A stretch of DNA of 64,000 nt from Paraspadella gotoi (lineage: Eukaryota > Animalia > Chaetognatha), in NCBI GenBank assembly GCA_051294375.1, contig CM119266.1, positions 22,263,875 to 22,327,874 on the forward strand, given 5' to 3'. Under the pieces are notes generated by a model that worked only from the letters and a program-made list of their open reading frames with translations, ran no database searches and had not been told where the DNA came from. The translations under genes and the position numbers were made by a program. Positions within the stretch are counted from its first letter, which is position 1. Each line of letters begins with the position of its first letter. Positions 14,743 through 21,957 of this stretch are shown here, piece after piece.

Positions 14743-17700
14743 ATGTCGTTCTGCCGCAGCGGCGAAATGGAGACCGCCTTCGGCCAGCAACTTGAATCGG
14801 CAGGCAGAGCCACGGCCAACGGAGCCGCTCCTCGCTCCGAAGCCTCCGTCGACGTCCGTTCGCCGGAAATCAACTTTCGAAATCTCGTCACTGTTGGCGT
14901 CTTGAATTTCATTAATCTTCTCAATTATATCGACAGATACACGCTGGCCGGTGCGGCGAAATATGAGCGGTTCATGGATGAAGAAAATATTTATTATATA
15001 CGTAGTTTTAAGCTAAATTTATTATTATTTTTTGATGCATGACTCGGGCAATAAAATTATACGTACGTATAGTAATTTTTTGTAGACTAATTTGAATAAA
15101 GTTCTTGAAAATCTGCGAAAAACGTTAAGTTAGTAAAGTTTAAATTTGAATAGAGAGTAATGATTGTGGTGCGTTAGTGAAACAACAGTTCAATACAAGC
15201 AATCCCTGAGCTTCGGATCAGGCTGAAACACGGTGTTACAACTTACAGGGGGGGTTAAGCGCCCCGTCCCTCTTAACTGCTAGGCGACCACCGGGTTAGA
15301 ACCCCGGACCTTTTGCAACAATGGCCGCTGATGAACGGTTGGAGTATTTTAGTCCACCATAAATTTGAAAAAAAAGCATTTCGCCGTTTTGTTTGTCGAC
15401 CCGCGCTACGACGCGTTTCAGGCGTTCTCGACGACGTTATCAGATACTACAACATAAGCCATGCCTCGGCAGGATTGATCCAAACCTCCTTCGTCCTCTC
15501 TTACATGATCCTCGCCCCGATTTTCGGTTATTTCGGCGATCGATTCAACCGGAAATACATCATGCTCTTCGGCATCGGTAACTCGGGCTTGGACCACAAA
15601 GTGGTGCACCAACATTTTATAGGATGTTTTTAAAGTTGAGTGTACAGTCGTTTAAAATAAATCAAAAAGTTACCGTGATATTGCTAGGTTTTGCTCAGTT
15701 TTAAAAGCGTCCTCAAAAGTTTTAAACTTAATAGTACATGTTTAACTTTTACTAAAACCTCTTCGTTCTTCCGTCAGCCTTTTGGGCGGGGACCACGCTG
15801 GCGGGATCCTTCGTTCCCAGCGACATGTTCCCCCTCTTCCTCTTCCTCCGCATGACGGTGGGCGTGGGCGAAGCCTCCTATTCCACCATCGCCCCCACAG
15901 TGATCGCGGACCTTTTCACCGGAAAGCGCAGGACGCTCATGCTCACGGTTTTCTACTTTGCCATCCCGATCGGTGAGAGAGAGAGAGAGAGAGAGAGAGA
16001 GAGAGAGAGAGAGAGAGAGAGAGAGAGAGAGAGAGAGAGAGAGAGAGAGAGAGAGAGAGAGAGAGAGAGAGAGAGAGAGAGAAAGAGAGAGAGAAAGAAA
16101 GAAAGAAAGAAAAAAAGAGGCTTACAATTCACCTCCTACTCCCCTTTCAAGGCAGCGGACTGGGCTTCGTGATAGGTTCTTCCCTGGCCAAAATCTTCAA
16201 CGATTGGAAATATGCCCTCCGCTTCACGCCAATAGGTGGCGCGATATCTTGCCTCCTCCTTCTCTTTCTCGTCCGAGAACCCGCGCGCGGAGAGGTCTGA
16301 GTTACAGTTACTTAATGTAAAACATGTTTATACAATATTACGTAGTTAATTGAAGATAAGAATTGCTAGTAATTACATAATCTAAAACTAAGATAACAAT
16401 AACTATTTCTATCCTATCCCACGCGCCAAAGATGGAGGGCCCCGCGGAAGAAAAGCGCGGTTCCTACTCGGAAGATCTTCGCGATCTGGCGAGAAACCGC
16501 ACCTACGTTCTTTCGACGCTCGGCTTCACCGGCGTCACCTTCGTCACCGGCGCTATCGCCTACTGGGCGCCCTACTTCACCGAGTACGCCTACTGGACCC
16601 TGGGCGTGGTCCCCAACAATACGGCCTTCCTCTTCGGCGTCGTCACCATGGCGACTGGTCTGGCCGGCGTAGTGGCGGGCTCGGCCTGGGCGTCGCGGTG
16701 GCGGCGAACGAATCCCGGAGCCGATGCCCTCGTCTGCGGCATTGGCGTCCTGACGGCGGGGCCGCTGTTATTCGTCGCCCTCCTGGCGGCGGAACGAAAC
16801 ATGGTGGCGTTCTGGGCGACGGTGGTGGTGGCCGAGTTGGCGCTTTGCCTCAACTGGGCTTTGGTGGCGGACATTTTGCTCTACGTCGTTCCGCCACAAA
16901 ATCGATCGACGGCGGAGGCGGTGCAGATACTGTTGTCGCACGCGCTGGGTAAGTTAATTCTATAGTAATCTTGTAATAAATTCCAAATTATTAAAGAGTA
17001 AATTAGTAAAGAGTAAATTTGTAAAAATTTTTTTAATGAACCATCCATTGATAATGCAATAAGCAAAACGACAAAAACATATATATTATTGAGGTGCACC
17101 ATAAAAAAAGAAGTGCGAAAAATAAATTTACTATTTGGAATGCGTACAATGCAGCATAATAATTGCGTGTGGCCATTTATTACTCATACACCAATATACT
17201 ATGATTGAATAGGAATTAAAATAATATTGCAAAAAAGAAACAGAGTGGAAATTCTTAAAAGAGTCTACTGAACCAACTGTTGTATCTCTAAAAAGACCAA
17301 CTTTTCATGTGATGATCGTGCAACAACTTTTCCCATTTTCTTATGAACTCCGTCCAATTGGCCATGGGATTATTTCTATATATGCCATCCCTTTCCACCT
17401 CCGCCGGTATTCTCAGCTTGAGAGTAGAGTGCACAAATTTGTCGCTAGAGGGCAAGACGCTGACGTATCCGTTACAGGTCACCGCGACTGCAAAGAGGTA
17501 CGCTAGATCGATAGGCAGCGATAGCGGCGCCGGCAAGAAAGCTCTGTTAGAATATTCCAAAATGTCCGCCTTCCGGCTCGCGTTCCAACTGGCGCGCGCC
17601 TTCTCCTGCTTGTCGTTGATGCTGTATTGAAAGACGGCGATGATGAGATTCAGCAGCAGGATCGTGGTGGCGCTCACGTACAGCACCCTGATCAGCGGCG

Positions 17701-20700: not shown

Positions 20701-21957
20701 TATTCATTCTGAACGAAGAAAATTTAGAAAATCGATGGAGAAAGTCCAAAGTTATGGGCAAGATACTAGGGCCAATTTCCATGAAAAAAAGAAAGAAAAG
20801 GTAAAAAAAAGGTAAAGCAAAGAAAAGAAAAACGAAAAAAAGGATTGACGAAAAAAAAAAGATAAGAAGAGAAAAAAATTTTAAATTTGGTCAATTACCT
20901 AGGAAACGTAGAGTAGTTATTCTGACTTGTTGAACGATTGATAAGTTTTTCTCCATTCATTTTTCTTCCTTTCGTTAATTTCGTTAATTTTTATCCGAAT
21001 GCATTGAAGAGAAACTCGTAAATCGACCTTGGCCTTTCAATCTTTCTCTTCAAGGTTGAAAGCGGCCAGGGACAAACCGGTCTCAAGGTTGATACAGGTT
21101 TCAAGGTTGTTGGAATGAGCTAGTTTACGACCTTTAATATTAAGTTAATGGGTGATAAATCAGAATCCGGTATTTATAGAAAATGCCTTTATGTTTAACC
21201 CCTTTGAAAACTTTTGCGCGCAGAACTTTACCTACCATGTCATTGTTTATTTTATAAAGGAAGGCAACTCTATATATAATACTATTTACATCTGTGTTTA
21301 CATTTGCTCCAGGCGATGCCGGCAGTCCATACCTGGTTGGGGTCTTGTCTGATTCCTTGAAACCTGAAGAACGCCCCGGGGTTGAAACATTTCGAGGGCT
21401 TTTCATCGGGGTGCAGTATGCGCTGCTCATGACCTGCTTCGTAGCTGTGATCGGAGGTCTGCTCTTTCTACTGGCTTCGCTCTACTTGCCCGAGGACAAA
21501 AAGAAGGTGAGAGTGAACTCGAGGTTGATTTTATGAAGTGTCAGAATCTGGAAACTGGATTATATATTTTGGGTAATTGTTATTTTTTTAGTAAAGTTTA
21601 CGAATATTCAAACTAGTTCAAATCTCTGTTTTTCGATTAATTTTTTCCAATCGTCCCTTTCAACTCTCCTCTCCCTTTCCTAAGGTTGAAATGATGACAA
21701 AGCTGAACGCTGCGCTGCAGGAGATCGTCGACATACACGAAGAGCAGCAGCAGGAGGAGCTGCTACGGCAAAAGTTGGACGCCGCTGAGTCCGCCAAGCG
21801 GCGCCGTTTGAGAGGCGACGGTGCCATTTTAGTTCGTTACTCGCCAACGCTGCCGTCCAGCTTCGACAACTTTGGATACAACGCCGATCTGTCAGAGTTA
21901 GACACGAGGGAGGCCAAAGCGATCGCGTTGGTGCGTCCCCCGAGCGTTAAAACTTAA
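14743..21957 (+). CDS. spin: Spinster homolog (SPNS), MFS lysolipid/sphingolipid transporter
   Basis: Exons 14743-14950, 15422-15577, 15778-15972, 16152-16294, 16432-16948, 21313-21506, 21685-21957. Spns motifs [100 protein letters not shown]. Confidence 0.94.
15240..15345 (-). mobile_element. tRNA-like (SINE-head-like) remnant in spinster intron 1
   Basis: Minus strand reads AAAAGGTCCGGGGTTCTAACCCGGTGGTCGCC, a T-arm/B-box-like hairpin. No complete cloverleaf. Confidence 0.3.
17288..20707 (-). CDS. TRPM-family (melastatin-like) cation channel, single coding exon (~1139 aa), nested antisense in spinster intron 5
   Basis: Uninterrupted ORF with MHR/SLOG motifs ([41 protein letters not shown]), MHR4 (LFLWSV, CLNLA, HLRDVWY), APQTKF, six TM helices, [11 protein letters not shown], pore [19 protein letters not shown] and TRP-box-like W..SR...ILEY..R.FLPAP. 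Start placed at 20707 (MNNDR) because an acceptor TTCAG|A precedes it; the ORF is open to 20782. Confidence 0.92.
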   Translation of the reverse strand: MNNDRDAFVNMDALDDSDSESSAYDPDVRYNLLPDTWITGGILFRDSPAANALGRKRYVRVPKDELSLEDDANFFLVDRFLRESGGWNLGEPRLLVNVFGDVGHAGEASVYLEPALRRLVGMNQNAWIFTDARSKQLTRAVGWAAKGMEEDWNSVENQECNVRVCNVGFGSWEKVRGRDKISDKETYDLSILNQAEEGETSEGGLSLLEENHTHFVLVEDGKLDGDEVRREVFRRMVAPKAQLLVGGDVSVSAVKGFTAGLSLSTPCILVEESGGLAKYLAQMVKRLKILPGTKASDHDIRSIVADYEKPESSENVSEAIIECLHRFKYMEVLEENMEKVQDLLILGYRKALGKNPEPVHQLDFMKLCCAWNNHVHLMKGLRACNMAGYDIHWYIECLKACLSSDNAMFIEALISSNESIFRSLSRKDLRDLYHSDGITLKTIREFIDGTTGDQHGFLDLLQEITELIDGTEFPSEADQKLDFKFHLFLWSVFSRHYNVARYFWQLSDYPIANGLIANTILKSLLENSQFQVNSDLQVDEARWYEEQSTHLLAKCNDRSPVRTKFLLVQELRQRGGVSCLNLATKDSFNSVFLSSRICIHHLRDVWYRCCKIDFWSQFKQLILCVFFLIFLIAILLCTYSEHESVIWGSALIAILSLVVFFLGICFLQTTGALRFDYSVFQTPSLDEERLDIKMLSKCQLSESEKRLLLTAGIPVDTIPLRRQAPSGLLSRMFFNTILFLEAPQTKFTFHLLTFSLYLFIFAFVVLTSTYDFASKLPTYFEWLLQLYWLAYFVQELKQVVRGDKGIDKMSFSSAIEYYWMNYWNRYDLLLFLYYIGLMTFRAVAYASTEPSRYFLVSVLNGYTFFFVLWCFRLLQIFTVSEFLGPKLLMIQAMILDFSHMITYILIFALAYAVWLKATIRTVEPGFLGTNSSSFDSGPNSAVDYLMSVNATQVFLYIDDLFSHPIWHVFGESFLDYYDDLIPKKEESDPLVYEYSVEVIKLYTPLIRVLYVSATTILLLNLIIAVFQYSINDKQEKARASWNASRKADILEYSNRAFLPAPLSLPIDLAYLFAVAVTCNGYVSVLPSSDKFVHSTLKLRIPAEVERDGIYRNNPMANWTEFIRKWEKLLHDHHMKSWSF
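21024..21134. promoter_or_regulatory. Cluster of NR5A/ERR-like extended half-sites upstream of the nested TRPM gene
   Basis: CCAAGGTCG (- strand, 21032-21024), TCAAGGTTG x3 (21050, 21083, 21101), AAGGTCG (- strand, 21134-21128). Confidence 0.3.

What the first reader, a model, noticed from the sequence alone, without database searches (positions are those of the whole stretch)
16949..21312. Complete coding-intronless TRPM-like gene nested antisense within a spinster intron
The 3.4-kb single-exon CDS fills most of the 4.36-kb intron 5 that splits spinster's conserved [12 protein letters not shown] motif. TRPM genes are normally very intron-rich and all neighbours here have many short introns, so a retroposed origin is likely. 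The ORF is intact, and a candidate 5'-UTR intron exists (donor CTAG|GTAATT at 20899, acceptor at 20709), suggesting a functional retrogene that gained a promoter inside the host intron.
Basis: partly seen in the sequence, partly recalled or inferred. Interest (0 to 1): 0.78.

Follow-up and report, generated by a model that had tools for sequence, protein, structure and literature searches.

The report
Ion-channel gene inside a spinster intron
An intact, transcribed and spliced TRPM-type ion-channel gene with almost no introns lies backwards inside one intron of the spinster transporter gene of an animal that is likely an arrow worm; it is likely an old retrocopy and is predicted to make a calcium-gated, calcium-permeable channel of an unusual branch of the family, while the nested layout itself is a common arrangement.

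Summary
Confirmed in the main. Spinster intron 5 is 16949-21312, and RNA-like contigs splice it out. They also hold a 3,929-nt contig of the antisense gene, spliced at the 190-nt intron 20709-20898. One correction: the upstream exon carries an in-frame ATG at 20960, so that intron is likely coding (1,160 aa, one intron).

The protein is a full TRPM fold. It keeps the Ca2+-site residues and an FGE filter. It has replaced the ADP-ribose-site residues and lacks the Nudix and coiled-coil tail. It sits in a divergent clade with two extra hydrophobic helices (9 of 10 members, 0 of 115 other TRPMs).

The neighbourhood (Hox1, spinster, TRPM, KSR) matches the published Hox1 region of the chaetognath Spadella, whose TRPM has Ka/Ks 0.12 (PMC2997562). 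That paper's main text does not mention nesting. Retroposition is likely but unproven: I found no parent, poly(A) tail or target-site repeat, and paralogue gene structures could not be read. Interest 0.42.

The parts
14743..21957 (+). spinster (MFS transporter) host gene, 7 coding exons: 14743-14950, 15422-15577, 15778-15972, 16152-16294, 16432-16948, 21313-21506, 21685-21957; 561 aa
   Evidence: Open, GT/AG-bounded model. MFS_1 hit on the exon-2 frame. Exon 5 matches named spinster proteins at 41-51%. Introns 4, 5 and 6 are spliced in X1 contigs.
16949..21312 (+). spinster intron 5 (4,364 nt, phase 1, GT..AG), host of the nested gene
   Evidence: joint 16947->21312 in one X1 contig, short side 28 letters
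17288..20708 (-). main exon of the TRPM-like gene; ATG at 20707, stop at 17290-17288; 1,139 codons without an intron
   Evidence: Pfam LSDAT_euk (SLOG) 86-283 and TRPM2 484-585. Best PDB hit nvTRPM2, E 2.9e-34. Covered by one 3,929-nt contig.
20709..20898 (-). 190-nt intron (GTAATT...TTCAG), likely coding, phase 2 in codon 21
   Evidence: CT..AC joint in X1; ends read; frame
20899..21038 (-). upstream exon as far as the RNA contig reaches. In-frame ATG at 20960 adds 21 residues (1,160 aa). Short upstream ORFs start at 21004 (6 aa) and 20956 (20 aa, out of frame).
   Evidence: The one RNA-versus-DNA difference (20949) gives E to D and no stop.
21050..21109 (.). three copies of TCAAGGTTG just upstream of the contig's 5' end; candidate promoter motif, untested
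   Evidence: All 3 copies in the 64 kb lie here; 0.5 expected in the whole window. The motif was picked by eye, so the chance figure is too favourable.
21171..21178 (-). TATAAATA, candidate TATA box about 135 nt upstream of the contig end
   Evidence: weak, as 10 copies occur in the window
16949..17287 (-). 3' UTR region with AATAAA at 17181 and ATTAAA at 17037; true 3' end unknown
   Evidence: The contig runs on to 16920, into spinster exon 5.
18698..18868 (-). two extra hydrophobic helices between MHR4 and S1 (residues 614-670 from Met 20707); predicted membrane hairpin
   Evidence: Helices 614-639 and 643-670 in the model. Two hydropathy peaks in 9 of 10 clade members and 0 of 115 other TRPMs.

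Best explanation
An intact TRPM-type channel gene with a single short intron near its start lies antisense in spinster intron 5 and is transcribed and spliced, likely from its own promoter in the intron; it is likely an old processed (retroposed) copy and is predicted to encode a calcium-gated, calcium-permeable cation channel that does not respond to ADP-ribose.
Shown: both genes are transcribed and spliced, and the spliceosome removes the whole guest from spinster pre-mRNA.
Inferred, origin: the mRNA of an intron-rich TRPM was reverse-transcribed. The copy, or a later DNA-level duplicate of it, came to lie in the intron opposite to the host, where its splice and poly(A) signals do not disturb host splicing. 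It then took a new first exon from intron sequence, which likely adds 21 residues. The event is old: the closest relatives found are 38-53% identical, and a TRPM under purifying selection lies beside spinster and Hox1 in Spadella too.
Inferred, function: a tetrameric channel. Ca2+ would bind the kept S2-S3 site (E795, Q798, N824, D827, with E1051 in the TRP helix). The F-G-E filter (969-971) would pass Ca2+, allowing self-sustaining opening. ADP-ribose gating is likely lost, so the primary stimulus would be something else, most likely a sensory signal acting through intracellular Ca2+. Nothing links its function to spinster's.
For: Splicing of both genes; RNA-like behaviour of X1. ORF far beyond chance. 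Model with mean pLDDT 83.3 and pTM 0.76 from a 50-row alignment; all 46 listed fold matches are TRPM, best zebrafish TRPM5 (E 2.4e-30, TM 0.66/0.74) and nvTRPM2. The five Ca2+-site residues align with nvTRPM2 E893, Q896, N918, D921 and E1110, and the filter with Y1035-G1036-E1037 (roles from PMC5976436 passages). Against zebrafish TRPM2, T150, T186, Y271, R278 and R334 align with F99, R133, D226, F233 and G275. In nvTRPM2, loss of the Tyr or the last Arg shifts the ADP-ribose EC50 over 1,000-fold (PMC7201885 passages). Canonical TRPMs are intron-rich. Single-coding-exon nested genes are held to arise by retrotransposition (PMC3933685 passages). Retroelements are diverse in the Spadella Hox1 region. 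Ka/Ks 0.118 for the likely orthologue.
Against: No parent gene, and the intron state of every clade member is unknown. No poly(A) remnant beyond an A7 run, and no flanking repeat beyond one 9-mer in AT-rich DNA. One intron likely lies in the coding sequence. A chaetognath genome paper found duplicated families no poorer in introns and ruled out a retrotransposition burst (PMC12460157). Only 16.67% of young opposite-strand nested duplicates in Drosophila came via RNA. The host's exon 5-6 joint rests on one contig with a 28-letter short side, from one run of one study. The ADP-ribose-site alignment is at about 20% identity and could be off by a few residues. The protein ends 73 residues after the TRP box, without the coiled coil seen in several relatives, which may matter for assembly. 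Orthology to the Spadella TRPM rests on gene neighbourhood only; I did not see its sequence.
Confidence: 0.55

Rival explanations
1. The whole divergent clade was already intron-poor, through one ancient intron-loss or retroposition event. This copy reached the spinster intron by DNA-level duplication or transposition, bringing its short 5' intron and promoter with it. The channel works as in the best explanation.
For: The gene has its own intron, likely in the coding sequence. It belongs to a multi-member clade. Chaetognath duplicates are mostly DNA-level and enriched in ion transport. Most opposite-strand nested duplicates in Drosophila are DNA-derived. No retroposition scars.
Against: It still needs an RNA-mediated step to explain 3.4 kb without introns. 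No paralogue structure was seen, so shared intron poverty is not shown.
Confidence: 0.3
2. The TRPM gene lost its introns in place by recombination with its own cDNA, which spares the 5'-most intron (general knowledge, recalled). It became nested when spinster was rearranged or extended around it.
For: The only intron left is the 5'-most one.
Against: The intron splits a motif that is contiguous in the closest spinster relative found (P0151, HALGDAGSPY), and exons on both sides are core transporter sequence, so the host predates the guest. Nearly all nested coding genes are held to arise by insertion.
Confidence: 0.09
3. The ORF is a decaying or non-channel copy, and the RNA seen is spinster pre-mRNA or regulatory antisense RNA.
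For: The contig runs into spinster exon 5, and contigs cannot show strand. The C-terminal coiled coil is missing. The 'RNA' label of X1 is a guess by the tool.
Against: The CT..AC joint needs minus-strand splicing. The ORF has 1,139 unbroken codons with GC3 0.64 against flanks of 26-33% GC. Ca2+-site and filter residues are kept. Other clade members (P0004, P0012, P0192) also end early. Ka/Ks 0.118 in Spadella.
Confidence: 0.06

Closest known systems
TRPM gene of the Spadella cephaloptera Hox1 region (Marletaz et al. 2010, PMC2997562; read: abstract, methods, parts of results, passages; figures and supplements not seen)
   Same: Same neighbourhood (Hox1, Spinster, TRPM, KSR1). 3,195 coding sites with almost no small indels over much of the gene, which fits one long exon. 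Ka/Ks 0.118.
   Different: The main text has no occurrence of 'nested' or 'intronless'; Fig. 1 and Table S1 may show the layout. Hox1-TRPM distance is 30-70 kb there and about 7-22 kb here. Its two Hox1-flank primers do not match this window.
Nematostella TRPM2 (nvTRPM2, PDB 6CO7; PMC5976436, passages) and zebrafish TRPM5 (PDB 7MBT)
   Same: SLOG/MHR1-4, six-helix channel core, TRP helix, all five Ca2+-site residues and, as in nvTRPM2, an aromatic-Gly-Glu filter.
   Different: About 18-20% identity. ADP-ribose-site residues replaced, no NUDT9-H domain, no C-terminal coiled coil, two extra hydrophobic helices before S1.
Opposite-strand nested genes with one main coding exon, e.g. LRRTM in alpha-catenin introns (PMC3933685, passages) and Drosophila nested genes (PMC3814207, passages)
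   Same: Guest lies in the host's longest intron on the opposite strand (71% of Drosophila cases) and has few introns; retroposition is presumed.
   Different: The guest here is a 1,100-residue channel of a normally 27-34-exon family, and it fills about 80% of the host intron.
TRPS (soromelastatin, ced-11-like; PMC7306681, read: parts 1-3 of 5)
   Same: A divergent SLOG-bearing, TRPM-like channel without kinase.
   Different: TRPS is described with a Nudix domain, absent here. No named TRPS reference was available, so the tree could not test it.

Membership tests
TRPM channels | N-terminal SLOG (MHR1/2) plus MHR3/4 region | tested here: met
   Pfam LSDAT_euk 32 bits (cut-off 25.7) and TRPM2 56.7 bits (cut-off 27); model
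TRPM channels | Six-helix channel core with pore loop, followed by TRP helix and TRP box | tested here: met
   Alignment to nvTRPM2 831-1123; full-length fold matches to TRPM5 and TRPM2, TM 0.59-0.66 by query
TRPM channels | C-terminal coiled coil after the stretcher (rib) helix | tested here: not met
   The protein stops right after the stretcher-like helix 1114-1138; tail 73 residues against a median of 146 in 125 others. Several clade relatives keep a coil-like stretch, so this is a loss within the clade.
TRPM channels | Falls within TRPM (alpha or beta clade) rather than TRPS in a rooted tree | tested here: inconclusive
   Supported divergent clade (9 rows SH-aLRT 100, 15 rows 99), apart from the two named TRPMs. 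Midpoint root only, no TRPS or TRPC reference.
TRPM2-type (ADP-ribose-gated) channels | MHR1/2 ADP-ribose-binding side chains (zebrafish T150, T186, Y271, R278, T312, R334) | tested here: not met
   5 of 6 could be placed and all 5 are replaced (F99, R133, D226, F233, G275); T312 lies in a poorly aligned stretch
TRPM2-type (ADP-ribose-gated) channels | C-terminal NUDT9-H domain | tested here: not met
   No Pfam hit and no room for it: the protein ends at residue 1139
Ca2+-activated TRPMs (TRPM2/4/5/8 type site) | S2-S3 Ca2+ site E, Q, N, D plus TRP-helix E | tested here: met
   E795, Q798, N824, D827, E1051; sequence only, gating not measured
Nested (intronic) genes | Whole gene lies between two spliced exons of a host gene | tested here: met
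   The 3' end of the guest RNA is unmapped and may overlap host exon 5.
Retrogenes | Loss of the parent's introns | tested here: inconclusive
   1,139 codons without an intron, but no parent to compare, and one likely coding intron at codon 21
Retrogenes | Intron-containing parent gene elsewhere in the genome | not testable with these tools
   No genome held; no second copy in the window; metagenome scans gave nothing close
Retrogenes | Poly(A) remnant and target-site duplication | tested here: not met
   Only an A7 run and one 9-mer shared by the flanks; such marks are expected to decay in old copies

The most novel reading that the evidence does not exclude
The gene belongs to an undescribed, arrow-worm-expanded TRPM subfamily that arose from a retroposed ancestor. 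The subfamily dropped ADP-ribose gating and gained two extra membrane-spanning helices before S1, giving an eight-helix TRPM. This member assembles without the coiled coil and serves as a sensory channel of the phylum's own cell types.
Probability: 0.3. Interest if true: 0.65.

Novelty: new variant of a known kind. Interest (0 to 1): 0.42.

Why it matters
The nested antisense layout is ordinary, and the gene was already annotated as a TRPM beside Spinster and Hox1 in an arrow worm in 2010. Two things are less ordinary. First, a channel family with about 30 exons appears here with one intron; my searches listed no paper describing an intron-poor or retroposed TRPM or a gene nested in spinster, though I read only listings for most hits. 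Second, the protein marks a divergent TRPM branch with a predicted extra membrane hairpin, no ADP-ribose site and, in this member, no coiled coil. If it conducts, it is a natural test of which TRPM parts are needed for assembly and gating. It would also be a candidate sensory channel in a phylum whose duplicated genes are enriched in ion transport.

Tried and rejected
No whole genome was available, so no paralogue or parent search. A single-sequence fold was useless (pLDDT 37.8); the alignment-based fold worked. The metagenome scan with the protein gave 26 pattern matches and no relative. The scan with a clade alignment gave 25 loci, all short or distant matches and none of the close clade; I did not study them further. 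No run is on record as RNA; X1 is a guess supported by its splicing. X2 matched only an A-rich stretch of the small intron and X3 nothing; this is no evidence of absence. Cluster look-ups for 21 relatives gave no name for any clade member, so their organisms, and whether they come from transcripts or DNA, are unknown. A full-length alignment of 145 rows timed out; trees use the transmembrane region only (143 rows; 48 rows that I chose from it plus four later hits). No target-site repeat, terminal repeat or poly(A) tail was found. The supplements of PMC2997562 could not be read, and the gene table of PMC12460157 was too large to read; either may show the nesting or this gene's expression. 'TRP' does not occur in that paper's main text or its three readable supplements. 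Contig depth was not used to rank expression. Rejected: assembly chimera (RNA joins both sides of the intron and the guest contig crosses the exon 5 boundary); transposon (no such domain); TRPM2 orthologue (sites and domain missing).
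Full report
Observation. The plus strand holds a seven-exon spinster gene (14743-21957, 561 aa) with GT/AG at all six introns. Intron 5 is exactly 16949-21312 and splits [12 protein letters not shown]; the other introns are 137-471 nt. Exon 5 matches named spinster proteins at 41-51%, and an unnamed Logan protein, P0151, at 59%; P0151 reads HALGDAGSPY without a break. On the minus strand of intron 5 lies a stop-free frame of 1,200 codons, with an ATG at 20707 giving 1,139 aa. The longest ORF in 1,000 base shuffles of the intron was 243 aa, and the ORF's GC3 is 0.64 against 26-33% GC in its flanks. 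No second copy lies in the window.

RNA. One of three listed runs, X1, holds the region; its RNA label is the tool's guess. Its contigs splice spinster introns 4, 5 and 6. The intron 5 joint rests on one contig with 28 letters on the short side, but it falls on GT..AG, keeps the frame and continues across intron 6. A separate 3,929-nt contig covers 16920-20708 and 20899-21038 with a CT..AC joint, that is a minus-strand intron of 190 nt. As a control, X1 splices the 13.5-kb Hox1 intron and leaves 8 of 30 bins of that stretch uncovered, as RNA would. Contigs cannot give strand, ends or level. The run of the guest contig into spinster exon 5 may be a long 3' UTR or host pre-mRNA. All this is one run of one study.

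After splicing, the upstream exon holds an ATG at 20960 (GAAAA-ATG-A) in frame with the main ORF and without a stop, adding 21 residues. Two short upstream ORFs start at 21004 and 20956. The intron is therefore likely coding (phase 2, codon 21), and the gene is better called single-intron than coding-intronless. Which ATG is used is untested. Just upstream of the contig's end lie the window's only three copies of TCAAGGTTG (picked by eye) and a TATAAATA (10 in the window). These are candidate promoter elements only.

The protein. Pfam finds SLOG (LSDAT_euk) and TRPM2-like domains above their cut-offs. All 60 PDB sequence hits shown are TRPM, best nvTRPM2. A model from a 50-row alignment has mean pLDDT 83.3 and pTM 0.76; all 46 listed fold matches are TRPM, best zebrafish TRPM5 and nvTRPM2. 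Because the alignment was rich in canonical TRPMs, the model leans towards that fold. The Ca2+-site residues of nvTRPM2 (E893, Q896, N918, D921, E1110; PMC5976436, passages) are kept as E795, Q798, N824, D827 and E1051. The filter reads F969-G970-E971, matching Y1035-G1036-E1037, whose glutamate that paper suggests may underlie high Ca2+ permeability. The ADP-ribose site is replaced: zebrafish T150, T186, Y271, R278 and R334 align with F99, R133, D226, F233 and G275, and T312 could not be placed (roles from PMC7201885, passages; PMC7201883, part 1 of 2). There is no NUDT9-H or kinase domain, and the chain ends after the stretcher-like helix without a coiled coil.

Relatives. A search of 1.84 billion representatives gave 698 hits, of which the best 150 were listed. 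The closest are 38-53% identical over parts of the protein. In transmembrane-region trees the protein falls in a supported clade: 14 of 143 rows at SH 99, and nested sets of 9, 12 and 15 of 48 rows at SH-aLRT 100, 97 and 99, apart from the two NCBI-named TRPMs. The trees are midpoint-rooted and lack TRPS references. The clade members looked up are unnamed and come from short ENA, JGI or Logan contigs of 0.7-5.8 kb. Of 157 proteins, 128 spanned MHR4 to S1. Two strong hydrophobic peaks occur there in 9 of 10 clade members, 0 of 3 next relatives and 0 of 115 others, matching helices 614-639 and 643-670 of the model. An extra membrane hairpin is predicted, not shown. The ESM Atlas gave only TRPM clusters.

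Context. The window also has a KSR-like gene, a TLC-domain gene and a homeobox gene whose homeodomain I read as Hox1/labial from recall. Marletaz et al. 2010 (PMC2997562; abstract, methods, parts of results and passages read; figures and supplements not seen) describe Hox1, TRPM, Spinster and KSR1 together on BACs of the chaetognath Spadella cephaloptera. They give 3,195 TRPM coding sites at Ka/Ks 0.118 among four alleles. The words 'nested' and 'intronless' do not occur in its main text. Its Hox1-flank primers do not match this window. The window is thus likely from a chaetognath, probably another species, and the TRPM is likely the orthologue, both by neighbourhood alone. A chaetognath genome paper (PMC12460157; section 7, passages, three supplements searched) reports duplicates enriched in ion transport, no intron deficit in duplicated families, and trans-splicing of nearly half the genes. 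It does not mention TRP channels in what I could search.

Origin. Scallop TRPM2a and 2b have 27 and 34 exons, though one scallop TRPV has a single exon (PMC8539334, passages). So 3.4 kb without an intron calls for an RNA-mediated step at some time. Nested genes with one coding exon are presumed retroposed (PMC3933685, passages). Against a direct retroposition into this intron: no parent could be sought, no DNA of clade members was found, and no poly(A) or target-site marks remain. In Drosophila, 71% of nested genes are antisense and only 16.67% of young antisense duplicates came via RNA (PMC3814207, passages). I put direct retroposition with a newly recruited first exon at 0.55, a DNA-level move of an already intron-poor gene at 0.30, in-place intron loss at 0.09 and a non-functional copy at 0.06.

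Mechanism, inferred. The guest would be transcribed from inside the intron, opposite to the host, and is removed with the intron from spinster RNA. The channel would open on cytosolic Ca2+, pass Ca2+ and ignore ADP-ribose. No functional link to spinster was found; nested pairs in Drosophila are less co-expressed than neighbours.

Novelty. Searches for TRPM with intronless or retrogene, spinster with nested gene, chaetognath with TRPM or TRP channel and TRPM expansion with single exon listed nothing on this layout apart from the 2010 paper. Most hits were seen as listings only, and most subscription papers are not in the library. It has unchecked notes of other nested antisense genes in this genome and of an intronless channel gene nested in a TRP gene elsewhere. 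Verdict: a real, likely functional nested gene of an ordinary layout, with a divergent TRPM protein that deserves a test. New variant of a known kind, interest 0.42.

Noticed in passing
window 27715-43241 (minus): Homeobox gene read as Hox1/labial, with two exons and a 13.5-kb intron that X1 splices (28371->41880); exon 1 is rich in His and Ala runs.
   Followed up: partly
window about 300-5244 (minus): Multi-exon KSR-like gene (SAM_KSR1 hit at 4879-5244); KSR1 is also named in the Spadella Hox1 region.
   Followed up: partly
window about 8150-8930 (plus): Exons of a TLC-domain gene (Pfam TRAM_LAG1_CLN8 at 8636-8929).
   Followed up: no
window 22130-23030 and onward (plus): A spliced transcript starts about 200 nt after the spinster stop (joints 22218->22280, 22410->22708, 22812->22887 in a 2,010-nt contig). 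The frames I scanned there had no Pfam hit. The short gap would fit an operon-like pair with spinster; untested.
   Followed up: no
window 21050-21109: Three copies of TCAAGGTTG within 60 nt, the only ones in the window; they resemble a nuclear-receptor half site as I recall it.
   Followed up: partly
window 16920-16949: The nested gene's contig runs about 30 nt into spinster exon 5, past two poly(A) signals: either an antisense 3' overlap or unspliced host RNA.
   Followed up: partly
window 29958-32837 and 53121-55447: Two pairs of near-duplicated low-complexity stretches near N gaps (similar translations at 30017-30718 and 32106-32837, and at 53121-53939 and 54637-55447): local duplications or assembly artefacts.
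   Followed up: no
window 8914-9480: Short tandem repeat whose plus frame reads as repeated QIMQVD-like units.
   Followed up: no
window 11273-11479 (plus): A 69-codon frame with a YIDD motif that recalls a reverse-transcriptase fragment; no Pfam hit.
   Followed up: partly
proteins P0009 and P0193: Deeper relatives of the clade end in a long cysteine-rich tail with CxxC pairs where other TRPMs have a Nudix domain.
   Followed up: no
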